A stretch of 64,000 nucleotides of DNA from assembly GCA_964016885.1 (NCBI GenBank), contig OZ024742.1, positions 164,300,001-164,364,000 on the forward strand, in the 5' to 3' direction. Under the pieces are notes generated by a model. The model was not told where the DNA came from. It searched no databases and was given only the letters and a program-made list of their open reading frames with translations. This DNA comes from Eledone cirrhosa (lineage: Eukaryota). Made by a program: the position numbers and the translations under genes. This document shows, piece after piece, positions 1 to 64,000 of the stretch. Within the stretch, counting starts at the first letter, position 1. Every line of letters starts with the position of its first letter.

Positions 1-396
1 AAATTATCTCCCCTTGGACGGCTGGAAATTATATCCCCTTGGAAGGATGGAAATTATCTCCCCTTGGACGGCTGGAAATTATCTCCCCTTGGACGGCTGG
101 AAATTATCTCCCCTTGGACAGCTGGAAATTATCTGCCCTTGATTTTGTTTTTACAAATTATCTCCCCCTGATTTTTTTTACAAATTATCTCCACCTGATT
201 TTTAAAAAAATTATCTCCCCTTGGACGGCTGGAAATTATCTCCCCTTGATTTTTTTTACAAATTATCTCCCCCTGATTTTTTTTTACAAATTATCTCCCC
301 CTGATTTTTTTTTACAAATTATCTCCCCCTGATTTTTTTTTACAAATTATCTCACCCTGATTTTTTTTACAAATTATCTCTCCCTGATTTTTTTAC

Positions 397-620
397 AAAT
401 TATCTCCCCTTGGCTGGCTGGAAATTATCTCCCCTTGGAGGCTGGAATTTATCTCCCCTTGGACGGCTAGAAATTACCTCTCCTTGGACGGCTGGAAAAT
501 ATGTCTCCTTGGACGGCTGGATATTATCTACCCTTGGACGGCTGGAAATTATCTCCCCTTGGACGGCTGGAAATTATCTCCTCTTGGACGGCTAGATATT
601 ACCTCCCCTTGGACGGCTGG
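397..620 (+). repeat. Representative long A-block cassette (9 ordered variant monomers, 224 bp), recurring dozens of times
   Basis: Fixed order: ..TTGGCTGGCTGG / ..TTGGAGGCTGG (24 bp) / AATTTATC..GGCTAG / AAATTACCTCTCC.. / AAAATATGTCTCC.. / ATATTATCTACCC.. / consensus / ..GGCTAG / ATATTACC.. . It corresponds to the recurring 61-aa MAGWKLSPLGGWNLSP... pseudo-ORF at 410, 923, 2483, 4221, 8335, 9895 and onward. Confidence 0.95.
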
Positions 621-2048
621 AAATTATCTCCCCTTGATTTTTTTACAAATTATCTCCCCCTGATTTTTTTACAAATTATCTCCCCCTGATTTTTTTTACA
701 AATTATCTCCGCCTAATTTTTTTAAATATTATCTTCCCTTGGCTGGCGGGAAATTATCTCCCCTTGGACGGCTGAAAATTATCTCCCCTTGGACGGCTGG
801 AAATTATCTCCCCTTGATTTTTTTTACAAATTATCTCCCCCTGATTTTTTTTTACAAATTATCTCCCCCTGATTTTTTTTACAAATTATCTCCCTCTGAT
901 TTTTTTTACAAATTATCTCCCCTTGGCTGGCTGGAAATTATCTCCCCTTGGAGGCTGGAATTTATCTCCCCTTGGACGGTTAGAAATTACCTCTCCTTGG
1001 ACTGCTGGAAAATATGTCTCCTTGGACGGCTGGAAATTATCTCCCCTTGGACGGCTGGAAATTATCTCCCCTTGGACGGCTGGAAATTATCTCTCCTCGG
1101 ACGACTAGAAATTACCTCTCCTTGGACAGCTGAAAATTATCTCCCCTTGGACGGCTGGAAATTATCTCCCCTTGATTTTTTTACAAATTATCTCCCCCTG
1201 ATTTTTTTTTACAAATTATCTCCCCCTGATTTTTTTTACAAATTATCTCCCCCTGATATTTTTTACAAATTATCTCCCCCTGATTTTTTTACAAATTATC
1301 TCCCCTTGGCTGGCTGGAAATTATCTACCCTTGGAGGCTGGAATTTATCTCCCCTTGGACGGCTAGAAATTACCTCGCCTTGGACGGCTGGAAAATATGT
1401 CTCCTTGGACGGCTGGAAATTATCTCCCCTTGGACGGCTGGAAATTATCTCCCCTTGGACGGCTGGAAATTATCTCCCCTTGGACGGCTAGATATTACCT
1501 CCCCTTGGACGGCTGGAAATTATCTCCCCTTGATTTTTTTTACAAATTATCTCCCCCTGATTTTTTTTTACAAATTATCTCCCCCTGATTTTTTTTTACG
1601 AAGTATCTCCCCCTGATTTTTTTTTACAAATTATCTCCGCCTGATTTTTTTTAAAAAATTATCTCCCCTTGAACGGCTGGAAATTATCTCCCCTTGGACG
1701 GCTGGAAATTATCTCCCCTTGGACGGCTAGAAATTACCTCTCCTTGGACGGCTGAAAATTATCTCCCATTGGACGGCTGCAAATTATCTCCCCTTGATTT
1801 TTTAACAAATTATCTCCCCCTGATTTTTTTTTACAAATTATCTCCCCCTGATTTTTTTTTACAAATTATCTACGCCTAATTTTTTTTACAAATTATCTCC
1901 CCCTGATTTTTTTTTACAAATTATCTCCCCCTGATTTTTTTTACAAATTATCTCCCCCTGATTTTTTTTTACAAATTATTTCCCCCTGATTTTTTTACAA
2001 ATTATCTCCCCCCTGATTTTTTTTACAATCTCCGCCTGATTTTTTTAA

Positions 2049-2198
2049 AAATTATCTTCCCTTGGCTGGCGGGAAATTATCTCCCCTTGGACGGCTGGAA
2101 ATTATATCCCCTTGGAAGGATGGAAATTATCTCCCCTTGGACGGCTGGAAATTATCTCCCCTTGGACGGCTGGAAATTATCTCCCCTTGGACAGCTGG
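2049..2198 (+). repeat. Representative 6-unit A-block cassette (150 bp)
   Basis: TATCTTCCCTTGGCTGGCGGG, consensus, TATATCCCCTTGGAAGGATGG, consensus x2, GGACAGCTGG, followed by TCTGCCCTTGATTTTGTTTTTAC. Recurs as the 60-aa pseudo-ORF at 2062, 9474, 11547, 15550, 17289 ... 63723. Confidence 0.93.
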
Positions 2199-3203
2199 AA
2201 ATTATCTGCCCTTGATTTTGTTTTTACAAATTATCTCCCCCTGATTTTTTTTACAAATTATCTCCACCTGATTTTTTAAAAAATTATCTCCCCTTGGACG
2301 GCTGGAAATTATCTCCCCTTGATTTTTTTTACAAATTATCTCCCCCTGATTTTTTTTTACAAATTATCTCCCCCTGATTTTTTTTTACAAATTATCTCCC
2401 CCTGATTTTTTTTTACAAATTATCTCACCCTGATTTTTTTTACAAATTATCTCTCCCTGATTTTTTTACAAATTATCTCCCCTTGGCTGGCTGGAAATTA
2501 TCTCCCCTTGGAGGCTGGAATTTATCTCCCCTTGGACGGCTAGAAATTACCTCTCCTTGGACGGCTGGAAAATATGTCTCCTTGGACGGCTGGATATTAT
2601 CTACCCTTGGACGGCTGGAAATTATCTCCCCTTGGACGGCTGGAAATTATCTCCTCTTGGACGGCTAGATATTACCTCCCCTTGGACGGCTGGAAATTAT
2701 CTCCCCTTGATTTTTTTACAAATTATCTCCCCCTGATTTTTTTACAAATTATCTCCCCCTGATTTTTTTTACAAATTATCTCCGCCTAATTTTTTTAAAT
2801 ATTATCTTCCCTTGGCTGGCGGGAAATTATCTCCCCTTGGACGGCTGAAAATTATCTCCCCTTGGACGGCTGGAAATTATCTCCCCTTGATTTTTTTTAC
2901 AAATTATCTCCCCCTGATTTTTTTTTACAAATTATCTCCCCCTGATTTTTTTTACAAATTATCTCCCCCTGATTTTTTTACAAATTATCTCCCCTTGGCT
3001 GGCTGGAAATTATCTCCCCTTGGAGGCTGGAATTTATCTCCCCTTGGACGGCTAGAAATTACCTCTCCTTGGAAGGCTGGAAAATATGTCCTTGGACGGC
3101 TGGATATTATCTACCCTTGGACAGCTGGAAATTATCTCCCCTTGGACGGCTGGAAATTATCTCCCCTTGGACGGCTAGATATTACCTCCCCTTGGACGGC
3201 TGG

Positions 3204-3585
3204 AAATTATCTCCACTTGATTTTTTTTACAAATTATCTCCCCCTGATTTTTTTTTACAAATTATCTCCCCCTGATTTTTTTTTACAAATTATCTCCCCC
3301 TGATTTTTTTTTACAAATTATCTACCCCTGATTTTTTTTTACAAATTATCTCCCCCTGATTTTTTTTACAAATTATCTCCCCCTGATTTTTTTTTACAAA
3401 TTATCTCCCCCTGATTTTTTTTTACAAATTATCTACCCCTGATTTTTTTTACAAATTATCTCCCCCTGATTTTTTTTACAAATTATCTCCCCCTGATTTT
3501 GTTTACAAATTATCTCCCCCTGATTTTTTTACAAATTATCTCCCCCTCATTTTTTTTACAAATTATCTCCGCCTAATTTTTTTAA
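3204..3585 (+). repeat. Long pure type-B (oligo-dT) run of 14 monomers with an internal 111-bp (4-monomer) duplication
   Basis: Fourteen consecutive TGA(T)nAC-type units. The variant TCTACCCC occurs at 3321 and 3432 (111 bp apart). Copies lie near 12.7, 20.5, 38.1 and 58.9 kb, with a shorter relative near 48.1 and 52.1 kb. Confidence 0.9.
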
Positions 3586-4859
3586 ATATTATCTTCCCTT
3601 GGCTGGCGGGAAATTATCTCCCCTTGGACGGCTGAAAATTATCTCCCCTTGGACGGCTGGAAATTATCTCCCCTTGATTTTTTTTACAAATTATCTCCCC
3701 CTGATTATTTTTTACAAATTATCCCCTGATTTTTTTTTTACAAATTATCTCCCCCTGATTTTTTTTACAAATTATCTCCCCCTGATTTTTTTACAAATTA
3801 TCTCCCCTTGGCTGGCTGGAAATTATCTCCCATTGGAGGCTGGAATTTATCTCCCCTTGGACGGTTAGAAATTACCTCCCCTTGGACGGCTGGAAAATAT
3901 GTCTCCTTGGACGGCTGGAAATTATCGCCCCTTGGACGGCTGGAAATTATCTCCCCTTGGACGGCTGGAAATTATCTCTCATCAGACGGCTAGAAATTAC
4001 CTCTCCTTGGACAGCTGAAAATTATCTCCCCTTGGACGGCTGGAAATTATCTCCCCTTGATTTTTTTTACAAATTATCTCCCCCTGATTTTTTTTTACAA
4101 ATTATCTCCCCCTGATTTTTTTTTACAAATTATCTCCCCCTGATTTTTTTTTACAAATTATCTCCCCCTGATATTTTTTACAAATTATCTCCCCCTGATT
4201 TTTTTACAAATTATCTCCCCTTGGCTGGCTGGAAATTATCTCCCCTTGGAGGCTGGAATTTATCTCCCCTTGGACGGCTAGAAATTACCTCGCCTTGGAC
4301 GGCTGGAAAATATGTCTCCTTGGACGGCTGGAAATTATCTCCCCTTGGACGGCTGGAAATTATCTCCCCTTGGACGGCTGGAAATTATCTCCCCTTGGAC
4401 GGCTAGATATTACCTCCCCTTGGACGGCTGGAAATTATCTCCCCTTGATTTTTTTTACAAATTATCTCCCCCTGATTTTTTTTTACAAATTATCTCCCCC
4501 TGATTTTTTTTTACGAATTATCTCCCCCCGATTTTTTTTTACAAATTATCTCCGCCTGATTTTTTTTTAAAAATTATCTCCCCTTGAACGGCTGGAAATT
4601 ATCTCCCCTTGGACGGCTGGAAATTATCTCCCCTTGGACGGCTAGAAATTACCTCTCCTTGGACGGCTGAAAATTATCTCCCCTTGGACGGCTGCAAATT
4701 ATCTCCCCTTGATTTTTTAACAAATTATCTCCCCCTGATTTTTTTTTACAAATTATCTCCCCCTGATTTTTTTTTACAAATTATCTCCCCCTGATTTTTT
4801 TTTACAAATTATCTCCCCCTGATTTTTTTACAAATTATCTCCCCCTGATTTTTTTTACA

Positions 4860-6250
4860 AATTATCTCCACCTGATTTTTAAAAAATTATCTCCCCTTGG
4901 ACGGCTGGAAATTATCTCCCCTTGATTTTTTTACAAATTATCTCCCCCTGATTTTTTTTTACAAATTATCTGCCCCTGATTTTTTTTACAAATTATCTCC
5001 CCCTGATTTTTTTACAAATTATCTCCCCTTGGCTGGCTGGAAATTATCTCCCCTTGGAGGCTGGAATTTATCTCCCCTTGGACGGCTAGAAATTACCTCT
5101 CCTTGGACGGCTGGAAAATATTTCTCCTTGGACGGCTGGATATTATCTACCTTTGGACGGGTGGAAATTATCTCCCCTTGGACGGCTGGAAATTATCTCC
5201 CCTTGGACGGCTAGATATTACCTCCCCTTGGACGGCTGGAAATTATCTTCCCTTGATTTTTTTTACAAATTATCTCCCCCTGATTTTTTTTTTACAAATT
5301 ATCTCCCCCTGATTTTTTTACAAATTATCTCCCCCTGATTTTTTTTACAAATTATCTCCGCCTGACTTTTTTAAATATTATCTTCCCTTGGCTGGCGGGA
5401 AATTATCTCCCCTTGGACGGCTGAAAATTATCTCCCCTTGGACGGCTGGAAATTATCTCCCCTTGATTTTTTTTACAAATTATCTCCCCCTGATTATTTT
5501 TTACAAATTATCTTTCCCTGATTTTTTTTTACAAATTATCTCCCCCTGATTTTTTTTACAAATTATCTCCCCCTGATTTTTTTACAAATTATCTCCCCTT
5601 GGCTGGCTGGAAATTATCTCTCCTTGGAGGCTGGAATTTATCTCCCCTTGGACGGCTGGAAATTATCTCTCCTTGGACGGCTAGAAATTACCTCTCCTTG
5701 GACGGCTGGAAAATATGTCTCGTTGGAGGGCTGGAAATTATCTCCCCTTGGACGGCTGGAAATTATCTCCCCTTGGACGGCTGGAAATTATCTCTCCTTG
5801 GACGGCTAGAAATTACCTCTCCTTGGACGGCTGAAAATTATCTCTCCTTGGACGGCTGGAAATTATCTCCCCTTGGACGGCTAGATATTACCTCCCCTTG
5901 GACGGCTGGAAATTATCTCCCCTTGATTTTTTTTACAAATTATCTCCCCCTGATTTTTTTTACAAATTATCTACACCTGATTTTTTTACAAATTATCTCC
6001 CCCTGATTTTTTTTACAAATTATCTCCGCCTCATTTTTTTAAATATTATCTTCCCTTGGCTGGCGGGAAATTATCTCCCCTTGGACGGCTGAAAATTATC
6101 TCCCCTTGGACGGCTGGAAATTATCTCCCCTTGATCTTTTTTACAAATTATCTCCCCCTGATTTTTTTTTACAAATTATCTCCCCCTGATTTTTTTTTAC
6201 AAATTATCTCCCCCTGATTTTTTTTTACAAATTATCTCCCCTTGGCTGGC
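4860..6250 (+). repeat. Diverged paralog of the first part of the 4,458-bp unit
   Basis: Shares rare variants AAAATATTTCTCC, GGACGGGTGG, TCTTTCCCTGA and TTGGAGGGCTGG with 23.7-25.4 kb. It also has private changes (CTACCTTTGG, CTGACTTTT, GTCTCGTTGG). Confidence 0.85.
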
Positions 6251-6494
6251 TGGAAATTATCTCCCCTTGGAGGCTGGAATTTATCTCCCCTTGGACGGCT
6301 AGAAATTACCTCTCCTTGGACGGCTGGAAAATATGTCCTTGGACGGCTGGATATTATCTACCCTTGGACGGCTGGAAATTATCTCCCCTTGGACGGCTGG
6401 AAATTATCTCCCCTTGGACGGCTAGATATTATCTCCCCTTGGACGGCTGGAAATTATCTCCCCTTGATTTTTTTTACAAATTATCTCCCCCTGA

Positions 6495-7420
6495 TTTTTT
6501 TTACAAATCTAATAATTTTTTAAAAAAAATTATCTCCCCTTCGCTGGCTGCAAATTATCTCCCCTTGGACGCTGGAAATTATAGCCCCTTGGAGGGCTGG
6601 AAATTATCTTCCCTTGGACGGCTGGAAATTATCTCCCCTCGGCTCGAAATTATCTCCCCTTGGACGGCTAGAAATTATCTCTCTTTGGACGGCTGGAAAT
6701 TATCTCCCTTTGATTTTTTTTACAAATTATCTCCCCCTGATTTTTTTTACAAATCTCCCCCTGATTTTTTAAAAAAAATTATCTCCCCTTCGCTGGCTGG
6801 AAATTATCTCCCCTTGGACACTGTAAATTATAGCCCCTTGGAGGGCTGGAAATTATCTTACCTTGGACGGCTGGAAATTATCTCTGCTTGATTTTTTTTA
6901 CAAATTATCTCCCCCTGATTTTTTTTTACAAATTATCCCCCCCGATTTTTTTTACAAATTATCTACCCCTGATTTTTTTTACAAATTATCTCCTCTTGGA
7001 CGGCTGGAAATTATCTCCCCTTGGACGGCTGGAAATTATCTCTCCTTGGACGGCTAGAAATTACCTCTCCTTGGACGACTGAAAATTATCTCCCCTTGGA
7101 CGGCTGCAAATTATCTCCCCTTGATTTCTTTTACAAATTATCTCCGCCTGATTTTTTTTTTTAAATTATCTCCCCTTGGACGGCTGGAAATTACCTCCCC
7201 TTGGACGGCTGGAAATTATCTCCCCTTGGACGGCTAGAAATTACCTCTCATTGGACGGCTGAAAATTATCTCCCCTTGGACGGCTGGAAATTATCTCCCC
7301 TTGATTTTTTTTACAAATTATCTCCCCCTGATTTTTTTTTTACAAATTATCTCCGCCTGATTTTTTTTTTAAATTATCTCTCCTTGGACGGCTGGATATT
7401 ATCTCCCCTTTCATTTTTTT
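6495..7420 (+). repeat. Single-copy, more degenerate satellite island outside the higher-order repeats
   Basis: Contains monomers I did not see elsewhere in the window: AAATCTAATAATTTTT, TTCGCTGGCTGC, TTATAGCCCC, GGACACTGT, CCTCGGCTCG, CCCCTTTCATTT. It has an internal diverged duplication (about 6527 vs 6776). Confidence 0.88.
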
Positions 7421-8029
7421 TACAAATTATCTCCCCCTGATTTTTTTTTACAAATTATCTCCCCCTGATTTTTTTTTACAAATTATCTCCCCCTGATTTT
7501 TTTTTACAAATTATCTCCCCCTGATTTTTTTTACAAATTATCTCCCCCTGATTTTTTTACAAATTATCTCCCCTTGGCTGGCTGGAAATTATCTCCCCTT
7601 GGAGGCTGGAATTTATCTCCCCTTGGACGGCTAGAAATTACCTCTCCTTGGACGGCTGGAAAATATGTCCTTGGACGGCTGGATATTATCTACCCTTGGA
7701 CGGCTGGAAATTATCTCCCCTTGGACGGCTGGAAATTATCTCCCCTTGGACGGCTAGATATTACCTCCCCTTGGACGGCTGGAAATTATCTCCCCTTGAT
7801 TTTTTTTACAAATTATCTCCCCCTGATTTTTTTTTACAAATTATCTCCCCCTGATTTTTTTTTACAAATTATCTCCGCCTGATTTTTTTTTACAAATTAT
7901 CTCCACCTAATTTTTTTTACAAATTATCTCTCCCTGATCTTTTTTTACAAATTATCTCCCCCTGATTTTTTTTTACCAATTATCTACCCCTGATTTTTTT
8001 TTACAAATTATCTCCCCCTTATTTTTTTT

Positions 8030-11000
8030 ACAAATTATCTCCCCCTGATTTTTTTTACAAATTATCTCCCCCTGATTTTTTTACAAATTATCTCCCCCCG
8101 ATTTTTTTTACAAATTATATCCGCCTAATTTTTTTAAATATTATCTATCCTTGGCTGGCGGGAAATTATCTCCCCTTGGACGGCTGAAAATGTTCTCCCC
8201 TTGGACGGCTGGAAATTATCTCCCCTTGATTTTTTTACAAATTATCTCCCCCTGATTATTTTTTACAAATTATCTCCCCCTGATTTTTTTTTACAAATTA
8301 TCTCCCTCTGATTTTTTTTACAAATTATCTCCCCTTGGCTGGCTGGAAATTATCTCCCCTTGGAGGCTGGAATTTATCTCCCCTTGGACGGTTAGAAATT
8401 ACCTCTCCTTGGACTGCTGGAAAATATGTCTCCTTGGACGGCTGGAAATTATCTCCCCTTGGACGGCTGGAAATTATCTCCCCTTGGACGGCTGGAAATT
8501 ATCTCTCCTCGGACGACTAGAAATTACCTCTCCTTGGACAGCTGAAAATTATCTCCCCTTGGACGGCTGGAAATTATCTCCCCTTGATTTTTTTACAAAT
8601 TATCTCCCCCTGATTTTTTTTTACAAATTATCTCCCCCTGATTTTTTTTACAAATTATCTCCCCCTGATATTTTTTACAAATTATCTCCCCCTGATTTTT
8701 TTACAAATTATCTCCCCTTGGCTGGCTGGAAATTATCTACCCTTGGAGGCTGGAATTTATCTCCCCTTGGACGGCTAGAAATTACCTCGCCTTGGACGGC
8801 TGGAAAATATGTCTCCTTGGACGGCTGGAAATTATCTCCCCTTGGACGGCTGGAAATTATCTCCCCTTGGACGGCTGGAAATTATCTCCCCTTGGACGGC
8901 TAGATATTACCTCCCCTTGGACGGCTGGAAATTATCTCCCCTTGATTTTTTTTACAAATTATCTCCCCCTGATTTTTTTTTACAAATTATCTCCCCCTGA
9001 TTTTTTTTTACGAAGTATCTCCCCCTGATTTTTTTTTACAAATTATCTCCGCCTGATTTTTTTTAAAAAATTATCTCCCCTTGAACGGCTGGAAATTATC
9101 TCCCCTTGGACGGCTGGAAATTATCTCCCCTTGGACGGCTAGAAATTACCTCTCCTTGGACGGCTGAAAATTATCTCCCATTGGACGGCTGCAAATTATC
9201 TCCCCTTGATTTTTTAACAAATTATCTCCCCCTGATTTTTTTTTACAAATTATCTCCCCCTGATTTTTTTTTACAAATTATCTACGCCTAATTTTTTTTA
9301 CAAATTATCTCCCCCTGATTTTTTTTTACAAATTATCTCCCCCTGATTTTTTTTACAAATTATCTCCCCCTGATTTTTTTTTACAAATTATTTCCCCCTG
9401 ATTTTTTTACAAATTATCTCCCCCCTGATTTTTTTTACAATCTCCGCCTGATTTTTTTAAAAATTATCTTCCCTTGGCTGGCGGGAAATTATCTCCCCTT
9501 GGACGGCTGGAAATTATATCCCCTTGGAAGGATGGAAATTATCTCCCCTTGGACGGCTGGAAATTATCTCCCCTTGGACGGCTGGAAATTATCTCCCCTT
9601 GGACAGCTGGAAATTATCTGCCCTTGATTTTGTTTTTACAAATTATCTCCCCCTGATTTTTTTTACAAATTATCTCCACCTGATTTTTAAAAAAATTATC
9701 TCCCCTTGGACGGCTGGAAATTATCTCCCCTTGATTTTTTTTACAAATTATCTCCCCCTGATTTTTTTTTACAAATTATCTCCCCCTGATTTTTTTTTAC
9801 AAATTATCTCCCCCTGATTTTTTTTTACAAATTATCTCACCCTGATTTTTTTTACAAATTATCTCTCCCTGATTTTTTTACAAATTATCTCCCCTTGGCT
9901 GGCTGGAAATTATCTCCCCTTGGAGGCTGGAATTTATCTCCCCTTGGACGGCTAGAAATTACCTCTCCTTGGACGGCTGGAAAATATGTCTCCTTGGACG
10001 GCTGGATATTATCTACCCTTGGACGGCTGGAAATTATCTCCCCTTGGACGGCTGGAAATTATCTCCTCTTGGACGGCTAGATATTACCTCCCCTTGGACG
10101 GCTGGAAATTATCTCCCCTTGATTTTTTTACAAATTATCTCCCCCTGATTTTTTTACAAATTATCTCCCCCTGATTTTTTTTACAAATTATCTCCGCCTA
10201 ATTTTTTTAAATATTATCTTCCCTTGGCTGGCGGGAAATTATCTCCCCTTGGACGGCTGAAAATTATCTCCCCTTGGACGGCTGGAAATTATCTCCCCTT
10301 GATTTTTTTTACAAATTATCTCCCCCTGATTTTTTTTTACAAATTATCTCCCCCTGATTTTTTTTACAAATTATCTCCCTCTGATTTTTTTTACAAATTA
10401 TCTCCCCTTGGCTGGCTGGAAATTATCTCCCCTTGGAGGCTGGAATTTATCTCCCCTTGGACGGTTAGAAATTACCTCTCCTTGGACTGCTGGAAAATAT
10501 GTCTCCTTGGACGGCTGGAAATTATCTCCCCTTGGACGGCTGGAAATTATCTCCCCTTGGACGGCTGGAAATTATCTCTCCTCGGACGACTAGAAATTAC
10601 CTCTCCTTGGACAGCTGAAAATTATCTCCCCTTGGACGGCTGGAAATTATCTCCCCTTGATTTTTTTACAAATTATCTCCCCCTGATTTTTTTTTACAAA
10701 TTATCTCCCCCTGATTTTTTTTACAAATTATCTCCCCCTGATATTTTTTACAAATTATCTCCCCCTGATTTTTTTACAAATTATCTCCCCTTGGCTGGCT
10801 GGAAATTATCTACCCTTGGAGGCTGGAATTTATCTCCCCTTGGACGGCTAGAAATTACCTCGCCTTGGACGGCTGGAAAATATGTCTCCTTGGACGGCTG
10901 GAAATTATCTCCCCTTGGACGGCTGGAAATTATCTCCCCTTGGACGGCTGGAAATTATCTCCCCTTGGACGGCTAGATATTACCTCCCCTTGGACGGCTG

Positions 11001-14000
11001 GAAATTATCTCCCCTTGATTTTTTTTACAAATTATCTCCCCCTGATTTTTTTTTACAAATTATCTCCCCCTGATTTTTTTTTACGAAGTATCTCCCCCTG
11101 ATTTTTTTTTACAAATTATCTCCGCCTGATTTTTTTTAAAAAATTATCTCCCCTTGAACGGCTGGAAATTATCTCCCCTTGGACGGCTGGAAATTATCTC
11201 CCCTTGGACGGCTAGAAATTACCTCTCCTTGGACGGCTGAAAATTATCTCCCATTGGACGGCTGCAAATTATCTCCCCTTGATTTTTTAACAAATTATCT
11301 CCCCCTGATTTTTTTTTACAAATTATCTCCCCCTGATTTTTTTTTACAAATTATCTACGCCTAATTTTTTTTACAAATTATCTCCCCCTGATTTTTTTTT
11401 ACAAATTATCTCCCCCTGATTTTTTTTACAAATTATCTCCCCCTGATTTTTTTTTACAAATTATTTCCCCCTGATTTTTTTACAAATTATCTCCCCCCTG
11501 ATTTTTTTTACAATCTCCGCCTGATTTTTTTAAAAATTATCTTCCCTTGGCTGGCGGGAAATTATCTCCCCTTGGACGGCTGGAAATTATATCCCCTTGG
11601 AAGGATGGAAATTATCTCCCCTTGGACGGCTGGAAATTATCTCCCCTTGGACGGCTGGAAATTATCTCCCCTTGGACAGCTGGAAATTATCTGCCCTTGA
11701 TTTTGTTTTTACAAATTATCTCCCCCTGATTTTTTTTACAAATTATCTCCACCTGATTTTTTAAAAAATTATCTCCCCTTGGACGGCTGGAAATTATCTC
11801 CCCTTGATTTTTTTTACAAATTATCTCCCCCTGATTTTTTTTTACAAATTATCTCCCCCTGATTTTTTTTTACAAATTATCTCCCCCTGATTTTTTTTTA
11901 CAAATTATCTCACCCTGATTTTTTTTACAAATTATCTCTCCCTGATTTTTTTACAAATTATCTCCCCTTGGCTGGCTGGAAATTATCTCCCCTTGGAGGC
12001 TGGAATTTATCTCCCCTTGGACGGCTAGAAATTACCTCTCCTTGGACGGCTGGAAAATATGTCTCCTTGGACGGCTGGATATTATCTACCCTTGGACGGC
12101 TGGAAATTATCTCCCCTTGGACGGCTGGAAATTATCTCCTCTTGGACGGCTAGATATTACCTCCCCTTGGACGGCTGGAAATTATCTCCCCTTGATTTTT
12201 TTACAAATTATCTCCCCCTGATTTTTTTACAAATTATCTCCCCCTGATTTTTTTTACAAATTATCTCCGCCTAATTTTTTTAAATATTATCTTCCCTTGG
12301 CTGGCGGGAAATTATCTCCCCTTGGACGGCTGAAAATTATCTCCCCTTGGACGGCTGGAAATTATCTCCCCTTGATTTTTTTTACAAATTATCTCCCCCT
12401 GATTTTTTTTTACAAATTATCTCCCCCTGATTTTTTTTACAAATTATCTCCCCCTGATTTTTTTACAAATTATCTCCCCTTGGCTGGCTGGAAATTATCT
12501 CCCCTTGGAGGCTGGAATTTATCTCCCCTTGGACGGCTAGAAATTACCTCTCCTTGGAAGGCTGGAAAATATGTCCTTGGACGGCTGGATATTATCTACC
12601 CTTGGACAGCTGGAAATTATCTCCCCTTGGACGGCTGGAAATTATCTCCCCTTGGACGGCTAGATATTACCTCCCCTTGGACGGCTGGAAATTATCTCCA
12701 CTTGATTTTTTTTACAAATTATCTCCCCCTGATTTTTTTTTACAAATTATCTCCCCCTGATTTTTTTTTACAAATTATCTCCCCCTGATTTTTTTTTACA
12801 AATTATCTACCCCTGATTTTTTTTTACAAATTATCTCCCCCTGATTTTTTTTACAAATTATCTCCCCCTGATTTTTTTTTACAAATTATCTCCCCCTGAT
12901 TTTTTTTTACAAATTATCTACCCCTGATTTTTTTTACAAATTATCTCCCCCTGATTTTTTTTACAAATTATCTCCCCCTGATTTTGTTTACAAATTATCT
13001 CCCCCTGATTTTTTTACAAATTATCTCCCCCTCATTTTTTTTACAAATTATCTCCGCCTAATTTTTTTAAATATTATCTTCCCTTGGCTGGCGGGAAATT
13101 ATCTCCCCTTGGACGGCTGAAAATTATCTCCCCTTGGACGGCTGGAAATTATCTCCCCTTGATTTTTTTTACAAATTATCTCCCCCTGATTATTTTTTAC
13201 AAATTATCCCCTGATTTTTTTTTTACAAATTATCTCCCCCTGATTTTTTTTACAAATTATCTCCCCCTGATTTTTTTACAAATTATCTCCCCTTGGCTGG
13301 CTGGAAATTATCTCCCATTGGAGGCTGGAATTTATCTCCCCTTGGACGGTTAGAAATTACCTCCCCTTGGACGGCTGGAAAATATGTCTCCTTGGACGGC
13401 TGGAAATTATCGCCCCTTGGACGGCTGGAAATTATCTCCCCTTGGACGGCTGGAAATTATCTCTCATCAGACGGCTAGAAATTACCTCTCCTTGGACAGC
13501 TGAAAATTATCTCCCCTTGGACGGCTGGAAATTATCTCCCCTTGATTTTTTTTACAAATTATCTCCCCCTGATTTTTTTTTACAAATTATCTCCCCCTGA
13601 TTTTTTTTTACAAATTATCTCCCCCTGATATTTTTTACAAATTATCTCCCCCTGATTTTTTTACAAATTATCTCCCCTTGGCTGGCTGGAAATTATCTCC
13701 CCTTGGAGGCTGGAATTTATCTCCCCTTGGACGGCTAGAAATTACCTCGCCTTGGACGGCTGGAAAATATGTCTCCTTGGACGGCTGGAAATTATCTCCC
13801 CTTGGACGGCTGGAAATTATCTCCCCTTGGACGGCTGGAAATTATCTCCCCTTGGACGGCTAGATATTACCTCCCCTTGGACGGCTGGAAATTATCTCCC
13901 CTTGATTTTTTTTACAAATTATCTCCCCCTGATTTTTTTTTACAAATTATCTCCCCCTGATTTTTTTTTACGAATTATCTCCCCCCGATTTTTTTTTACA

Positions 14001-15844
14001 AATTATCTCCGCCTGATTTTTTTTTAAAAATTATCTCCCCTTGAACGGCTGGAAATTATCTCCCCTTGGACGGCTGGAAATTATCTCCCCTTGGACGGCT
14101 AGAAATTACCTCTCCTTGGACGGCTGAAAATTATCTCCCCTTGGACGGCTGCAAATTATCTCCCCCTGATTTTTTTTTACAAATTATCTCCCCCTGATTT
14201 TTTTACAAATTATCTCCCCCTGATTTTTTTTACAATCTCCGCCTGATTTTTTAAAAAATTATCTTCCCTTGGCTGGCGGGAAATTATCTCCCCTTGGACG
14301 GCTGGAAATTATCTCCCCTTGGACGGCTGGAAATTATCTCCCCTTGGACAGCTGGAAATTATCTGCCCTTGATTTTGTTTTTACAAATTATCTCCCCCTG
14401 ATTTTTTTTACAAATTATCTCCACCTGATTTTTTAAAAAATTATCTCCCCTTGGACGGCTGGAAATTATCTCCCCTTGATTTTTTTACAAATTATCTCCC
14501 CCTGATTTTTTTTACAAATTATCTCCCCCTGATTTTATGTTACAAATTATCTCCCCCTGATTTTTTTTACAAATTATCTCCCCCTGATTTTTTTTACAAA
14601 TTATCTCCGCCTGATTTTTTTAAATATTATCTTCCCTTGGCTGGCGGGAAATTATCTCCCCTTGGACGGCTGGAAATTATCTCCCCTTGATTTTTTTTAC
14701 AAATTATCTCCCCCTGATTTTTTTTTACAAATTATCTCCCCCTGATTTTTTTTTACAAATTATCTCCCCCTGATTTTTTTTTACAAATCTCCCCCTGATT
14801 TTTTTATAAATTATCTCCCCTTGGCTGGCTGGAAATTATCTCCCCTTGGAGGCTGGAATTTATCTCCCCTTGGACGGCTAGAAATTACCTCTCCTTGGAT
14901 GGCTGGAAAATATGTCTCCTTGGACGGCTGGATATTATCTACCCTTGGACGGCTGGAAATTATCTCCCCTTGGACGGCTGGAAATTATCTCCCCTTGGAC
15001 GGCTAGATATTACCTCCCATTGGACGGCTGGAAATTATCTCCCCTTGATTTTTTTTACAAATTATCTCCCCCTGATTTTTTTTTACGAATTATCTCCCCC
15101 TGATTTTTTTTTACAAATTATCTCCGCCTGATTTTTTTTTTTAAATTATCTCCCCTTGAACGGCTGGAAATTATCTCCCCTTGGACGGCTGGAAATTATC
15201 TCCCCTTGGACGGCTAGAAATTACCTCTCCTTGGACGGCTGAAAATTATCTCCCCTTGGACGGCTGCAAATTATCTCCCCTTGATTTTTTTAACAAATTA
15301 TCTCCCCCTGATTTTTTTTTACAAATTATCTCCCCCTGATTTTTTTTTTACAAATTATCTACGCCTAATTTTTTTTACAAATTATCTCCCCCTGATTTTT
15401 TTTTACAAATTATCTCCCCCTGATTTTTTTTACAAATTATCTCCCCCTGATTTTTTTTACAAATTATCTCCCCCTGATTTTTTTACAAATTATCTCCCCC
15501 CTGATTTTTTTTACAATCTCCGCCTGATTTTTTTAAAAATTATCTTCCCTTGGCTGGCGGGAAATTATCTCCCCTTGGACGGCTGGAAATTATATCCCCT
15601 TGGAAGGATGGAAATTATCTCCCCTTGGACGGCTGGAAATTATCTCCCCTTGGACGGCTGGAAATTACCTCCCCTTGGACAGCTGGAAATTATCTGCCCT
15701 TGATTGTGTTTTTACAAATTATCTCCCCCTGATTTTTTTTACAAATTATCTACACCTGATTTTTAAAAAAATTATCTCCCCTTGGACGGCTGGAAATTAT
15801 CTCCCCTTGATTTTTTTACAAATTATCTCCCCCTGATTTTTTTT
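8030..15844 (+). repeat. ~7.8-kb higher-order repeat copy I (contains a 2,073-bp dimer at about 8290-12440)
   Basis: 8335/16150, 9524/17339 and 10224/18039 differ by 7,815. Internal pairs 8335/10408 and 9895/11968 differ by 2,073. Confidence 0.9.
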
Positions 15845-55905: not shown

Positions 55906-58900
55906 AGATTATCTCCCCTTGGACGGCTGGAAATTATCTCCCCTTGATTTTTTTTACAAATTATCTCCCCCTGATTTTTTTTTACAAATTATCTCCCCCT
56001 GATTTTTTTTTACAAATTATCTCCCCCTGATTTTTTTTTACAAATTATCTCACCCTGATTTTTTTTACAAATTATCTCTCCCTGATTTTTTTACAAATTA
56101 TCTCCCCTTGGCTGGCTGGAAATTATCTCCCCTTGGAGGCTGGAATTTATCTCCCCTTGGACGGCTAGAAATTACCTCTCCTTGGACGGCTGGAAAATAT
56201 GTCTCCTTGGACGGCTGGATATTATCTACCCTTGGACGGCTGGAAATTATCTCCCCTTGGACGGCTGGAAATTATCTCCTCTTGGACGGCTAGATATTAC
56301 CTCCCCTTGGACGGCTGGAAATTATCTCCCCTTGATTTTTTTACAAATTATCTCCCCCTGATTTTTTTACAAATTATCTCCCCCTGATTTTTTTTACAAA
56401 TTATCTCCGCCTAATTTTTTTAAATATTATCTTCCCTTGGCTGGCGGGAAATTATCTCCCCTTGGACGGCTGAAAATTATCTCCCCTTGGACGGCTGGAA
56501 ATTATCTCCCCTTGATTTTTTTTACAAATTATCTCCCCCTGATTTTTTTTTACAAATTATCTCCCCCTGATTTTTTTTACAAATTATCTCCCTCTGATTT
56601 TTTTTACAAATTATCTCCCCTTGGCTGGCTGGAAATTATCTCCCCTTGGAGGCTGGAATTTATCTCCCCTTGGACGGTTAGAAATTACCTCTCCTTGGAC
56701 TGCTGGAAAATATGTCTCCTTGGACGGCTGGAAATTATCTCCCCTTGGACGGCTGGAAATTATCTCCCCTTGGACGGCTGGAAATTATCTCTCCTCGGAC
56801 GACTAGAAATTACCTCTCCTTGGACAGCTGAAAATTATCTCCCCTTGGACGGCTGGAAATTATCTCCCCTTGATTTTTTTACAAATTATCTCCCCCTGAT
56901 TTTTTTTTACAAATTATCTCCCCCTGATTTTTTTTACAAATTATCTCCCCTTGATATTTTTTACAAATTATCTCCCCCTGATTTTTTTACAAATTATCTC
57001 CCCTTGGCTGGCTGGAAATTATCTACCCTTGGAGGCTGGAATTTATCTCCCCTTGGACGGCTAGAAATTACCTCGCCTTGGACGGCTGGAAAATATGTCT
57101 CCTTGGACGGCTGGAAATTATCTCCCCTTGGACGGCTGGAAATTATCTCCCCTTGGACGGCTGGAAATTATCTCCCCTTGGACGGCTAGATATTACCTCC
57201 CCTTGGACGGCTGGAAATTATCTCCCCTTGATTTTTTTTACAAATTATCTCCCCCTGATTTTTTTTTACAAATTATCTCCCCCTGATTTTTTTTTACGAA
57301 GTATCTCCCCCTGATTTTTTTTTACAAATTATCTCCGCCTGATTTTTTTTAAAAAATTATCTCCCCTTGAACGGCTGGAAATTATCTCCCCTTGGACGGC
57401 TGGAAATTATCTCCCCTTGGACGGCTAGAAATTACCTCTCCTTGGACGGCTGAAAATTATCTCCCATTGGACGGCTGCAAATTATCTCCCCTTGATTTTT
57501 TAACAAATTATCTCCCCCTGATTTTTTTTTACAAATTATCTCCCCCTGATTTTTTTTTACAAATTATCTACGCCTAATTTTTTTTACAAATTATCTCCCC
57601 CTGATTTTTTTTTACAAATTATCTCCCCCTGATTTTTTTTACAAATTATCTCCCCCTGATTTTTTTTTACAAATTATTTCCCCCTGATTTTTTTACAAAT
57701 TATCTCCCCCCTGATTTTTTTTACAATCTCCGCCTGATTTTTTTAAAAATTATCTTCCCTTGGCTGGCGGGAAATTATCTCCCCTTGGACGGCTGGAAAT
57801 TATATCCCCTTGGAAGGATGGAAATTATCTCCCCTTGGACGGCTGGAAATTATCTCCCCTTGGACGGCTGGAAATTATCTCCCCTTGGACAGCTGGAAAT
57901 TATCTGCCCTTGATTTTGTTTTTACAAATTATCTCCCCCTGATTTTTTTTACAAATTATCTCCACCTGATTTTTTAAAAAATTATCTCCCCTTGGACGGC
58001 TGGAAATTATCTCCCCTTGATTTTTTTTACAAATTATCTCCCCCTGATTTTTTTTTACAAATTATCTCCCCCTGATTTTTTTTTACAAATTATCTCCCCC
58101 TGATTTTTTTTTACAAATTATCTCACCCTGATTTTTTTTACAAATTATCTCTCCCTGATTTTTTTACAAATTATCTCCCCTTGGCTGGCTGGAAATTATC
58201 TCCCCTTGGAGGCTGGAATTTATCTCCCCTTGGACGGCTAGAAATTACCTCTCCTTGGACGGCTGGAAAATATGTCTCCTTGGACGGCTGGATATTATCT
58301 ACCCTTGGACGGCTGGAAATTATCTCCCCTTGGACGGCTGGAAATTATCTCCTCTTGGACGGCTAGATATTACCTCCCCTTGGACGGCTGGAAATTATCT
58401 CCCCTTGATTTTTTTACAAATTATCTCCCCCTGATTTTTTTACAAATTATCTCCCCCTGATTTTTTTTACAAATTATCTCCGCCTAATTTTTTTAAATAT
58501 TATCTTCCCTTGGCTGGCGGGAAATTATCTCCCCTTGGAAGGCTGAAAATTATCTCCCCTTGGACGGCTGGAAATTATCTCCCCTTGATTTTTTTTACAA
58601 ATTATCTCCCCCTGATTTTTTTTTACAAATTATCTCCCCCTGATTTTTTTTACAAATTATCTCCCCCTGATTTTTTTACAAATTATCTCCCCTTGGCTGG
58701 CTGGAAATTATCTCCCCTTGGAGGCTGGAATTTATCTCCCCTTGGACGGCTAGAAATTACCTCTCCTTGGAAGGCTGGAAAATATGTCCTTGGACGGCTG
58801 GATATTATCTACCCTTGGACGGCTGGAAATTATCTCCCCTTGGACGGCTGGAAATTATCTCCCCTTGGACGGCTAGATATTACCTCCCCTTGGACGGCTG

Positions 58901-59239
58901 GAAATTATCTCCACTTGATTTTTTTTACAAATTATCTCCCCCTGATTTTTTTTTACAAATTATCTCCCCCTGATTTTTTTTTACAAATTATCTCCCCCTG
59001 ATTTTTTTTTACAAATTATCTACCCCTGATTTTTTTTTACAAATTATCTCCCCCTGATTTTTTTTACAAATTATCTCCCCCTGATTTTTTTTTACAAATT
59101 ATCTCCCCCTGATTTTTTTTTACAAATTATCTACCCCTGATTTTTTTTACAAATTATCTCCCCCTGATTTTTTTTACAAATTATCTCCCCCTGATTTTGT
59201 TTACAAATTATCTCCCCCTGATTTTTTTACAAATTATCT

Positions 59240-62200
59240 CCCCCTCATTTTTTTTACAAATTATCTCCGCCTAATTTTTTTAAATATTATCTTCCCTTGG
59301 CTGGCGGGAAATTATCTCCCCTTGGACGGCTGAAAATTATCTCCCCTTGGACGGCTGGAAATTATCTCCCCTTGATTTTTTTTACAAATTATCTCCCCCT
59401 GATTATTTTTTACAAATTATCCCCTGATTTTTTTTTTACAAATTATCTCCCCCTGATTTTTTTTACAAATTATCTCCCCCTGATTTTTTTACAAATTATC
59501 TCCCCTTGGCTGGCTGGAAATTATCTCCCATTGGAGGCTGGAATTTATCTCCCCTTGGACGGTTAGAAATTACCTCCCCTTGGACGGCTGGAAAATATGT
59601 CTCCTTGGACGGCTGGAAATTATCGCCCCTTGGACGGCTGGAAATTATCTCCCCTTGGACGGCTGGAAATTATCTCTCATCGGACGGCTAGAAATTACCT
59701 CTCCTTGGACAGCTGAAAATTATCTCCCCTTGGACGGCTGGAAATTATCTCCCCTTGATTTTTTTTACAAATTATCTCCCCCTGATTTTTTTTTACAAAT
59801 TATCTCCCCCTGATTTTTTTTTACAAATTATCTCCCCCTGATTTTTTTTTACAAATTATCTCCCCCTGATATTTTTTACAAATTATCTCCCCCTGATTTT
59901 TTTACAAATTATCTCCCCTTGGCTGGCTGGAAATTATCTCCCCTTGGAGGCTGGAATTTATCTCCCCTTGGACGGCTAGAAATTACCTCGCCTTGGACGG
60001 CTGGAAAATATGTCTCCTTGGACGGCTGGAAATTATCTCCCCTTGGACGGCTGGAAATTATCTCCCCTTGGACGGCTGGAAATTATCTCCCCTTGGACGG
60101 CTAGATATTACCTCCCCTTGGACGGCTGGAAATTATCTCCCCTTGATTTTTTTTACAAATTATCTCCCCCTGATTTTTTTTTACAAATTATCTCCCCCTG
60201 ATTTTTTTTTACGAATTATCTCCCCCCGATTTTTTTTTACAAATTATCTCCGCCTGATTTTTTTTTAAAAATTATCTCCCCTTGAACGGCTGGAAATTAT
60301 CTCCCCTTGGACGGCTGGAAATTATCTCCCCTTGGACGGCTAGAAATTACCTCTCCTTGGACGGCTGAAAATTATCTCCCCTTGGACGGCTGCAAATTAT
60401 CTCCCCTTGATTTTTTAACAAATTATCTCCCCCTGATTTTTTTTTACAAATTATCTCCCCCTGATTTTTTTTTACAAATTATCTCCCCCTGATTTTTTTT
60501 TACAAATTATCTCCCCCTGATTTTTTTACAAATTATCTCCCCCTGATTTTTTTTACAATCTCCGCCTGATTTTTTAAAAAATTATCTTCCCTTGGCTGGC
60601 GGGAAATTATCTCCCCTTGGACGGCTGGAAATTATCTCCCCTTGGACGGCTGGAAATTATCTCCCCTTGGACAGCTGGAAATTATCTGCCCTTGATTTTG
60701 TTTTTACAAATTATCTCCCCCTGATTTTTTTTACAAATTATCTCCACCTGATTTTTTAAAAAATTATCTCCCCTTGGACGGCTGGAAATTATCTCCCCTT
60801 GATTTTTTTACAAATTATCTCCCCCTGATTTTATGTTACAAATTATCTCCCCCTGATTTTTTTTACAAATTATCTCCCCCTGATTTTTTTTACAAATTAT
60901 CTCCGCCTGATTTTTTTAAATATTATCTTCCCTTGGCTGGCGGGAAATTATCTCCCCTTGGACGGCTGGAAATTATCTCCCCTTGATTTTTTTTACAAAT
61001 TATCTCCCCCTGATTTTTTTTTACAAATTATCTCCCCCTGATTTTTTTTTACAAATTATCTCCCCCTGATTTTTTTTTACAAATTATCTCCCCCTGATTT
61101 TTTTTACAAATTATCTCCGCCTAATTTTTTTAAATATTATCTTCCCTTGGCTGGCGGGAAATTATCTCCCCTTGGACGGCTGAAAATTATCTCCCCTTGG
61201 ACGGCTGGAAATTATCTCCCCTTGATTTTTTTTACAAATTATCTCCCCCTGATTATTTTTTACAAATTATCCCCTGATTTTTTTTTTACAAATTATCTCC
61301 CCCTGATTTTTTTTACAAATTATCTCCCCCTGATTTTTTTACAAATTATCTCCCCTTGGCTGGCTGGAAATTATCTCCCATTGGAGGCTGGAATTTATCT
61401 CCCCTTGGACGGTTAGAAATTACCTCCCCTTGGACGGCTGGAAAATATGTCTCCTTGGACGGCTGGAAATTATCGCCCCTTGGACGGCTGGAAATTATCT
61501 CCCCTTGGACGGCTGGAAATTATCTCTCATCGGACGGCTAGAAATTACCTCTCCTTGGACAGCTGAAAATTATCTCCCCTTGGACGGCTGGAAATTATCT
61601 CCCCTTGATTTTTTTTACAAATTATCTCCCCCTGATTTTTTTTTACAAATTATCTCCCCCTGATTTTTTTTTACAAATTATCTCCCCCTGATTTTTTTTT
61701 ACAAATTATCTCCCCCTGATATTTTTTACAAATTATCTCCCCCTGATTTTTTTACAAATTATCTCCCCTTGGCTGGCTGGAAATTATCTCCCCTTGGAGG
61801 CTGGAATTTATCTCCCCTTGGACGGCTAGAAATTACCTCGCCTTGGACGGCTGGAAAATATGTCTCCTTGGACGGCTGGAAATTATCTCCCCTTGGACGG
61901 CTGGAAATTATCTCCCCTTGGACGGCTGGAAATTATCTCCCCTTGGACGGCTAGATATTACCTCCCCTTGGACGGCTGGAAATTATCTCCCCTTGATTTT
62001 TTTTACAAATTATCTCCCCCTGATTTTTTTTTACAAATTATCTCCCCCTGATTTTTTTTTACGAATTATCTCCCCCCGATTTTTTTTTACAAATTATCTC
62101 CGCCTATTTTTTTTTAAAAATTATCTCCCCTTGAACGGCTGGAAATTATCTCCCCTTGGACGGCTGGAAATTATCTCCCCTTGGACGGCTAGAAATTACC

Positions 62201-62940
62201 TCTCCTTGGACGGCTGAAAATTATCTCCCCTTGGACGGCTGCAAATTATCTCCCCTTGATTTTTTAACAAATTATCTCCCCCTGATTTTTTTTTACAAAT
62301 TATCTCCCCCTGATTTTTTTTTACAAATTATCTCCCCCTGATTTTTTTTTACAAATTATCTCCCCCTGATTTTTTTACAAATTATCTCCCCCTGATTTTT
62401 TTTACAATCTCCGCCTGATTTTTTAAAAAATTATCTTCCCTTGGCTGGCGGGAAATTATCTCCCCTTGGACGGCTGGAAATTATCTCCCCTTGGACGGCT
62501 GGAAATTATCTCCCCTTGGACAGCTGGAAATTATCTGCCCTTGATTTTGTTTTTACAAATTATCTCCCCCTGATTTTTTTTACAAATTATCTCCACCTGA
62601 TTTTTTAAAAAATTATCTCCCCTTGGACGGCTGGAAATTATCTCCCCTTGATTTTTTTACAAATTATCTCCCCCTGATTTTATGTTACAAATTATCTCCC
62701 CCTGATTTTTTTTACAAATTATCTCCCCCTGATTTTTTTTACAAATTATCTCCGCCTGATTTTTTTAAATATTATCTTCCCTTGGCTGGCGGGAAATTAT
62801 CTCCCCTTGGACGGCTGGAAATTATCTCCCCTTGATTTTTTTTACAAATTATCTCCCCCTGATTTTTTTTTACAAATTATCTCCCCCTGATTTTTTTTTA
62901 CAAATTATCTCCCCCTGATTTTTTTTTACAAATTATCTCC
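59240..62940 (+). repeat. 1,850/1,849-bp tandem duplication
   Basis: 59297/61147 and 59919/61769 differ by 1,850. 60307/62156 and 60774/62623 differ by 1,849. Confidence 0.93.
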
Positions 62941-64000
62941 CCCTGATTTTTTTTTACAAATCTCCCCCTGATTTTTTTATAAATTATCTCCCCTTGGCTG
63001 GCTGGAAATTATCTCCCCTTGGAGGCTGGAATTTATCTCCCCTTGGACGGCTAGAAATTACCTCTCCTTGGATGGCTGGAAAATATGTCTCCTTGGACGG
63101 CTGGATATTATCTACCCTTGGACGGCTGGAAATTATCTCCCCTTGGACGGCTGGAAATTATCTCCCCTTGGACGGCTAGATATTACCTCCCATTGGACGG
63201 CTGGAAATTATCTCCCCTTGATTTTTTTTACAAATTATCTCCCCCTGATTTTTTTTTACGAATTATCTCCCCCTGATTTTTTTTTACAAATTATCTCCGC
63301 CTGATTTTTTTTTTTAAATTATCTCCCCTTGAACGGCTGGAAATTATCTCCCCTTGGACGGCTGGAAATTATCTCCCCTTGGACGGCTAGAAATTACCTC
63401 TCCTTGGACGGCTGAAAATTATCTCCCCTTGGACGGCTGCAAATTATCTCCCCTTGATTTTTTTAACAAATTATCTCCCCCTGATTTTTTTTTACAAATT
63501 ATCTCCCCCTGATTTTTTTTTTACAAATTATCTACGCCTAATTTTTTTTACAAATTATCTCCCCCTGATTTTTTTTTACAAATTATCTCCCCCTGATTTT
63601 TTTTACAAATTATCTCCCCCTGATTTTTTTTACAAATTATCTCCCCCTGATTTTTTTACAAATTATCTCCCCCCTGATTTTTTTTACAATCTCCGCCTGA
63701 TTTTTTTAAAAATTATCTTCCCTTGGCTGGCGGGAAATTATCTCCCCTTGGACGGCTGGAAATTATATCCCCTTGGAAGGATGGAAATTATCTCCCCTTG
63801 GACGGCTGGAAATTATCTCCCCTTGGACGGCTGGAAATTACCTCCCCTTGGACAGCTGGAAATTATCTGCCCTTGATTTTGTTTTTACAAATTATCTCCC
63901 CCTGATTTTTTTTACAAATTATCTCCACCTGATTTTTTAAAAAATTATCTCCCCTTGGACGGCTGAAAATTATCTCCCCTTGATTTTTTTACAAATTATC

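What the first reader, a model, noticed from the sequence alone, without database searches (positions are those of the whole stretch)
1..64000. Binary two-monomer satellite: one constant core with two unrelated alternative tails (GC-rich vs oligo-dT) arranged in blocks
Seen: a near-invariant 13-bp core AAATTATCTCCCC recurs every 25-28 bp and is followed by either TTGGACGGCTGG or (C/T)TGA(T)7-9AC. Beyond the shared TG the tails are not point variants of each other, and I saw no intermediates. The array reads as an A/B barcode with block lengths of 1-14. Known: well-studied higher-order satellites such as primate alpha satellite are built from diverged but alignable monomers. Inference: this constant-core/switchable-tail satellite may be an undescribed family in which the core is a protein-binding or recombination site and the tail sets local DNA physics. 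I do not recognise the family.
Basis: partly seen in the sequence, partly recalled or inferred. Interest (0 to 1): 0.75.

Follow-up and report, generated by a model that had tools for sequence, protein, structure and literature searches.

The report
Hybrid two-monomer octopod satellite
The window is 64 kb of a roughly 15-million-base repeat, in what is likely an octopus genome, built of alternating short blocks of two related units; it likely arose when two sister repeats that still exist separately in the genome were joined and then copied in kilobase pieces, and it likely lies in centromere regions, while the shared core shows no sign of special conservation.

Summary
The pattern is real. 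The whole window is 2,465 monomers (1,263 A, 1,202 B) in runs of 1-14, with no true intermediates. The interpretation mostly fails. The core is exact in only 62% of monomers and is not detectably more conserved than the tails in four array types. Tails are rarely swapped at the core: 216 of 217 A-to-B junctions carry one inherited base, and about 3.5% differ genome-wide. The 'barcode' is ordered variant blocks copied in kilobase duplications. The genome is a 3-Gb mollusc, likely octopod. The satellite totals about 15-17 Mb in interior arrays on four giant chromosomes, C21 and unplaced contigs. Both likely parents survive: a more diverged B-only array (C5) and A-like arrays with an AT-rich spacer, which lead back to a composite repeat found beside telomere-like tracts. 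All 21 mapped family sites lie 27-63% along 11 chromosomes, which suggests centromere regions; this is untested. The window's own 2.95-Mb piece lies between two scaffold gaps. No description was found in the papers searched; shared-box and two-unit satellites are known in nematodes and humans. The scan found this family before on other DNA (e1-10323831).

The parts
1..64000 (+). Continuous two-monomer satellite (1,263 A of 21-25 bp, 1,202 B of 22-29 bp); interior of a 2.95-Mb array piece, G000:C3:162,699,882-165,654,111, with a 200-N gap on each side
1..125 (+). Example A block (5 GC-rich monomers)
126..207 (+). Example B block (3 oligo-dT monomers); its first monomer has the junction-type T at position 14
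397..620 (+). Ordered 9-monomer A block; variants of this word recur through the window and on other chromosomes
3204..3585 (+). Longest B run (14 monomers), recurring five times in the window
14153..14180 (+). The only A-to-B junction in the window (1 of 217) with C at position 14, the signature expected of a crossover inside the core
1..4144 (+). Exact 4,144-bp repeat, second copy from 9,486
7413..12607 (+). Longest exact repeat (5,195 bp), second copy from 32,860

Best explanation
This is a non-coding, multi-megabase two-monomer satellite that likely formed when a run of one sister repeat (B) was joined into an array of another (A) through their shared 16-bp stretch, was then likely spread by kilobase-scale duplications, and likely sits in centromere-region heterochromatin of an octopod. 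Shown: the block structure, the inherited junction base, the ordered variant blocks shared between chromosomes, the separate B-only and A-like arrays, the older-looking layers at two array edges, and the interior positions. Inferred: the direction from parents to hybrid, one or few founding junctions, block-length change by slippage or unequal exchange between like monomers, occasional passive crossovers in the core, and the centromere-region role.
For: Junction rule: B after A has T14 in 216 of 217 cases, B after B has C14 in 980 of 985, and A after B has T14 in 216 of 216. Genome-wide exact junction counts are 32,611 with T against 1,175 with C. A toy simulation gave 48-76% C junctions with free core crossover, and 0.4-6% with blocks of about 4-6 when crossover is rare and duplications are long. 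The first A after B is a special variant in 480 of 769 cases against 50 of 3,180 inside A runs. Parents: a B-only array at C5:64.24-64.30 Mb has no A tail in 30.6 kb read and is more diverged (3.0 against 1.45 edits). A' arrays one base from A lie at C1:231.58, C1:251.77-252.21, C3:165.86-165.87, C3:179.43 and C25:17.48 Mb. At two downstream array edges AB passes without a gap into A'-plus-spacer units, and on C3 further into a 19-mer composite. Position: AB arrays lie 37-63% along C1-C4 and C21, and all 21 mapped family sites lie 27-63% along 11 chromosomes. No array was seen at 39 contig ends examined, 10 of which carry TTAGGG.
Against: Outside the window 52 of 549 A-to-B junctions have C14 (13 of 34 in one C2 sample), so core exchange or T-to-C change does recur. 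Copy-weighted, the A core is less variable than the A tail in 13 of 15 samples, which are not independent. Higher divergence of the B-only array suggests but does not prove that it is older, and the A' arrays are not more diverged than A (1.0-1.7 against 1.45 edits). No intermediate explains how the B tail arose. For the centromere: 137 rare-variant hits in three complete lists fall on no chromosome among C5-C20 or C22-C28. C1 and C4 each have two separate sites, and other satellites share the same clusters. The window's piece is placed only by scaffolding. One search scored 40 of 580 candidates, so distal sites of the composite may be missed.
Confidence: 0.62

Rival explanations
1. The core is a selected protein-binding or recombination site and tails are actively switched on it.
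For: The same core carries at least six tails in this genome. 3.5-9.5% of A-to-B junctions carry the crossover signature. The core holds a GATA-like hexamer (motif recalled), kept in 1,134 of 1,202 B. Precedent: nematode Box 1 (PMC3694981).
Against: No core-tail difference in four de-duplicated sets. The hexamer is lost in 332 of 1,263 A. Core-deleted monomers were amplified. The sister arrays were found with the core as query, which biases the count of tails.
Confidence: 0.1
2. B arose once inside an A array by replacement of the tail, and the C5 B-only array is a later offshoot rather than a parent.
For: A single founding junction fits the T14 rule equally well. The B-only array is small (about 56 kb) and single.
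Against: The B-only array is about twice as diverged, has deletion variants absent from the window, and shares only 8% of sampled 31-mers with it.
Confidence: 0.2
3. The arrays are the active CENP-A-bearing centromere DNA of these chromosomes, and the alternation of roughly nucleosome-sized GC-rich and A-tract blocks is kept by selection.
For: Multi-Mb, homogeneous arrays on several chromosomes with older-looking layers outside. Blocks average 145 and 150 bp. The A fraction stays 0.41-0.58 in 15 samples and runs never exceed 17 in about 760, tighter than most toy runs.
Against: Not found on most chromosomes. A+B cycles spread from about 50 to 630 bp. Samples share ancestry, so the tightness may reflect youth. 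No chromatin data.
Confidence: 0.2
4. The arrays are non-centromeric interstitial heterochromatin, for example scars of the fusions that may have made the four giant chromosomes.
For: Most of the mass is on the four 379-443-Mb chromosomes. Convergent array pairs occur on C1-C3, a degenerate telomeric tract lies at C2:251.2 Mb, and the core-less composite abuts telomere-like tracts at four sites.
Against: Small C21 also has an array at 50%. No telomeric tract was seen in 190 kb between the C3 arrays, which holds a strumpellin-like exon. Orientation across gaps is unreliable. Fusion points could not be mapped here.
Confidence: 0.2

Closest known systems
Meloidogyne chitwoodi/fallax box-containing satellites (PMC3694981; passages read)
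   Same: Divergent monomers share a short motif (17-bp Box 1), occur both in simple arrays and in mixed higher-order arrays, and join at the motif.
   Different: There the box is conserved above background and monomers are about 170 bp. Here the shared part is over half of a 25-28-bp monomer, is not extra-conserved, and the types form variable runs.
Human satellite 1A / SAR (PMC9909926; passages read)
   Same: Pericentromeric satellite of two short unit types (17 and 25 bp) with longer higher-order periods.
   Different: Described as a 42-bp unit of alternating A and B; AT-rich overall; no shared-core, variable-run design is described in the passages read.
Ditypic, intermixed and heterogeneous-HOR centromeric satellites (10.64898/2026.09.17.752431; passages read)
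   Same: Two related families mixed in one region, sub-nucleosomal monomers, irregular higher-order repeats, clusters of separate arrays.
   Different: Here the mixing is at the scale of 1-17 monomers and both parents appear to survive; the main text does not mention octopus, cephalopods or molluscs; its supplements were not seen.
Primate alpha satellite HORs with layered flanks (recalled, no call)
   Same: Ordered variant monomers, kilobase duplications, older layers at array edges.
   Different: 171-bp alignable monomers and a CENP-B box; the recalled box pattern has 0 matches in the window.

Membership tests
Higher-order-repeat satellite DNA | Long head-to-tail array of short monomers | tested here: met
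   2,465 monomers over 64 kb; arrays of 2-3 Mb on C3
Higher-order-repeat satellite DNA | Multi-monomer units more alike than neighbouring monomers | tested here: met
   Ordered blocks; exact repeats to 5,195 bp; 88% of window in repeats of 1 kb or more; irregular, no single period
Satellites with a conserved functional box (Meloidogyne Box 1 type) | Motif shared by otherwise unrelated monomers | tested here: met
   Core shared by 19-, 21-, 25- and 27-bp monomers; found by core-based search
Satellites with a conserved functional box (Meloidogyne Box 1 type) | Motif more conserved than the rest of the monomer | tested here: not met
   p=0.72, 0.46, 0.63, 0.96 in four de-duplicated sets; copy-weighted A core slightly lower in 13 of 15 dependent samples
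Satellites with a conserved functional box (Meloidogyne Box 1 type) | Monomer junctions are made within the motif | tested here: inconclusive
   Junctions lie in the shared 16 bp by construction, but 96.5% of exact A-to-B junctions carry one inherited form
Centromeric satellite | Long homogeneous arrays shared by several chromosomes | tested here: met
   C1-C4, C21, C123, C1058; mean 1.6-2.1 edits per monomer
Centromeric satellite | One site on each chromosome | tested here: not met
   None on C5-C20 or C22-C28 in 137 hits; two sites on C1 and C4; unplaced arrays cannot be assigned
Centromeric satellite | CENP-A occupancy or primary constriction | not testable with these tools
   No chromatin, Hi-C or FISH data
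Telomeric repeat | Located at chromosome ends | tested here: not met
   0 of 39 contig ends carry the array; 10 carry TTAGGG
Alpha satellite | 171-bp monomer with CENP-B box | tested here: not met
   25-28-bp monomers; 0 matches to the recalled box pattern

The most novel reading that the evidence does not exclude
A young centromere satellite caught at birth: two sister repeats descended from a telomere-associated composite hybridised into a binary GC-rich/A-tract array of roughly nucleosome-sized blocks, which took over the centromeres of the giant, probably fused, chromosomes of this octopod while its parents and each earlier stage remain in mid-chromosome clusters.
Probability: 0.2. Interest if true: 0.68.

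Novelty: new variant of a known kind. Interest (0 to 1): 0.36.

Why it matters
None of the cephalopod papers found here describes centromeric DNA: three genome papers have 0 occurrences of 'centromer' or 'satellite'. This family gives concrete FISH and CUT&Tag probes. It is also an unusually readable case of satellite birth, with likely parents, an inherited junction marker and edge layers in one genome. The junction base offers a direct way to measure how often exchange occurs across 13-16 bp of homology inside arrays.

Tried and rejected
Telomere role: rejected. Functional core: rejected on conservation. A mirror-image fusion geometry on C3 was set aside because the + array is gap-bounded on both sides. 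Origin of the B tail from the AT spacer or from the 196-, 91-, 88-, 71-, 20-, 11- or 9-bp neighbours: only T-run matches, the best 12 bases, so unresolved. The 11-13-bp neighbour has no contiguous junction with AB in the probes. Cross-species conservation: 20 runs of 14 studies hold some words, with organisms B-I at shares of 0.22-0.37. The four best holders are one study and may be the source. A rare-variant probe to map the 196-bp repeat found nothing; its exact 24-mer count of 4,659 suggests about 1.2 Mb, far less than AB. Rfam: 0 matches in 3 loci. Canonical G-quadruplex pattern: 0. No dominant block-scale period among the top 15 spectral peaks. Paper searches for the core string and for hybrid or alternating-block satellites found nothing relevant. 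Dfam, Repbase and nt could not be searched.

Full report
Observation. The window decomposes completely into 2,465 whole monomers, 1,263 A and 1,202 B, in 160 distinct sequences, all on the + strand. Runs are 1-13 (A) and 1-14 (B); 434 runs against 1,232 +/- 24 in 1,000 shuffles shows real blocks. The tails are 11 edits apart and 2,464 of 2,465 monomers fall clearly in one class. In 7,930 monomers from 15 samples, 26 were about equally far from both types, mostly decayed B. The shared stretch is 16 bp, not 13, with one variable base at position 14.

The core is not special. It is exact in 652 of 1,263 A and 883 of 1,202 B. After removing duplicate haplotypes, core and tail change at similar rates in A (0.107 against 0.120, p=0.72), B (0.086 against 0.113, p=0.46), the B-only array (0.074 against 0.067, p=0.63) and A' arrays (0.099 against 0.088, p=0.96). 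Against this, the copy-weighted A core is slightly less variable than the tail in 13 of 15 samples, while the B core is more variable in 10 of 15; the samples share ancestry. A GATA-like hexamer (motif recalled) is lost in 26% of A. Monomers with deletions in the core were amplified too.

The barcode is inherited. Position 14 is T in 216 of 217 B monomers that follow A, and C in 980 of 985 that follow B. A crossover in the 13-bp core would give C at an A-to-B junction. Genome-wide exact counts are 32,611 T and 1,175 C; in 14 samples outside the window 52 of 549 are C. So core exchange, or a T-to-C change, happens but is minor. A blocks are ordered words of variant monomers, some found on C1, C2, C3, C4, C21 and unplaced contigs. 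88% of the window lies in exact repeats of 1 kb or more, up to 5,195 bp, at many offsets, which also shows that T-run lengths are copied faithfully. A toy neutral model with long duplications and rare core crossover gave similar block means and 0.4-6% C junctions; free crossover gave 48-76% (three runs per setting, illustrative only). Real runs are tighter (maximum 17) than most simulated ones.

Organism and place. The window is G000:C3:164,300,001-164,364,000 in a 3.0-Gb genome, with four chromosomes of 379-443 Mb and many of 24-136 Mb. It has molluscan haemocyanin genes. One unit scores best per domain against PDB 1JS8 (855 bits) over 4YD9_C (738); that these are octopus and squid proteins is recalled. 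The exact A monomer occurs 74,679 times, which scales to 14.7-15.3 Mb; the B-B count of 153,450 scales to about 17 Mb by my arithmetic. Rare-variant lists place arrays at C1:251.2-252.2 and 279.2, C2:244.3-251.1, C3:162.7-169.1, C4:140.1 and 205.5-206.4, C21:17.6 Mb, and on C123, C1058 and C1499. The three complete lists (137 hits) have none on C5-C20 or C22-C28; small arrays can be missed, as C4:140.1 was. None of 39 contig ends examined carries the array and 10 carry TTAGGG. The window's piece (2.95 Mb) has a 200-N gap on each side, so its place and orientation rest on scaffolding. The neighbouring minus-strand array (165.87-167.89 Mb) joins other DNA without a gap in the stretches read (3 kb unread).

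Ancestry. A B-only array lies at C5:64.24-64.30 Mb: no A tail in 30.6 kb read, 3.0 edits per monomer against 1.45 in the window. A' (one base from A) forms runs separated by a 125-360-bp AT-rich spacer that starts right after a core, at the downstream edges of AB arrays on C1 and C3, and short arrays at C1:231.58, C3:179.43 and C25:17.48 Mb. Further out on C3, and at C2:192.18 Mb, an 850-1,000-bp composite has a 19-bp monomer with the same core, the same spacer and extra GC-rich blocks. The composite without any core occurs on C2, C3, C4, C8, C13 and C14 (14 of 17 loci read lack the core; a C6 hit was not read), next to degenerate telomeric tracts at four sites. The order composite, 19-mer, A', A is inferred from nesting and shared parts; A' is not more diverged than A. 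How the B tail arose is unresolved. That the core carries many tails is real but biased by core-based searching.

Function. All 21 mapped family sites lie 27-63% along 11 chromosomes, and octopod karyotypes are mostly metacentric (PMC5646656, passages). Long homogeneous arrays shared by several chromosomes are the features that a centromere atlas scores (10.64898/2026.09.17.752431, passages). I therefore put centromere-region heterochromatin at about 0.6 and CENP-A-bearing DNA at about 0.2-0.3. Against: absence from most chromosomes, two sites on C1 and C4, several other satellites in the same clusters, only 40 of 580 candidates scored, and no chromatin data.

Literature. The core string occurs in no searched paper. 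Searches joining octopus or cephalopod with centromere and satellite terms listed no cephalopod satellite description (listings only). Three cephalopod genome papers have no occurrence of 'centromer' or 'satellite' (term searches in the main text). The closest cases are Meloidogyne Box 1 satellites (PMC3694981, passages) and human satellite 1A (PMC9909926, passages). Repeat databases, subscription papers and the atlas supplements were not seen and may hold the family.

Earlier scan notes. I saw e1-10328835 before finding the A' layer. I saw e1-10323831, the same family on other DNA with a similar conclusion, before searching for the B parent; the tests above are my own calls.

Verdict. A real and apparently undescribed satellite of a known general kind, with an unusually legible origin; the functional-core reading is not supported. 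Interest 0.36.

Noticed in passing
L087 (G000:C2:244,305,001-244,310,580): A 196-bp satellite joins the AB array without a gap; about 4,659 exact 24-mer copies genome-wide, also at C1:279.7 Mb.
   Followed up: partly
L112, L147-L153, L184-L191 (C3:162.66-162.70 and 167.89-167.99 Mb): A 9-bp AT-rich satellite flanks the upstream end of both large C3 arrays; the minus-strand junction is gap-free through a short shared word.
   Followed up: partly
L029, L030, L117, L154, L155 (C3:168.0-168.74 Mb): An 11-13-bp AT-rich satellite in all probes across about 0.7 Mb between AB arrays.
   Followed up: no
L121, L130, L144, L122 (C2:192.18, C14:23.92, C13:26.39, C8:30.88 Mb): Composite repeat dense in GCGCATGCGC and CCGGAA words (NRF1- and ETS-like, recalled), beside degenerate telomeric tracts in mid-chromosome on C8, C13, C14 and C3.
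   Followed up: partly
L107 (C25:17.477-17.479 Mb): An A' run, an inverted 21-bp deletion derivative and a second 19-bp monomer lie side by side, followed by a 71-bp satellite.
   Followed up: partly
L105-L106 (C3:179.43 Mb) and L226 (C5:64.33 Mb): The same 20-bp satellite lies downstream of both an A' array and the B-only array.
   Followed up: no
L026:1-78 (C3:165.80 Mb): Strumpellin-like exon (Pfam PF10266, E=6e-6, just under the cut-off) in the 190-kb island between two arrays.
   Followed up: partly
L091 (C2:251.2 Mb): Degenerate telomeric tract just beyond the C2 minus-strand array.
   Followed up: no
L080 (C1:251.183-251.188 Mb); L101-L102 (C3:165.847-165.860 Mb): A 91-bp AT-rich satellite and an 88-bp satellite flank AB arrays.
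   Followed up: no
L016-L019 (C1:173.7-173.9 Mb, C26:21.9-22.0 Mb): Several haemocyanin gene copies on two chromosomes.
   Followed up: partly
L001 (C3:160.0 Mb); L219 (C5:64.242 Mb): Retrotransposon-like reading frames (recognised by eye); one such stretch directly borders the B-only array.
   Followed up: no
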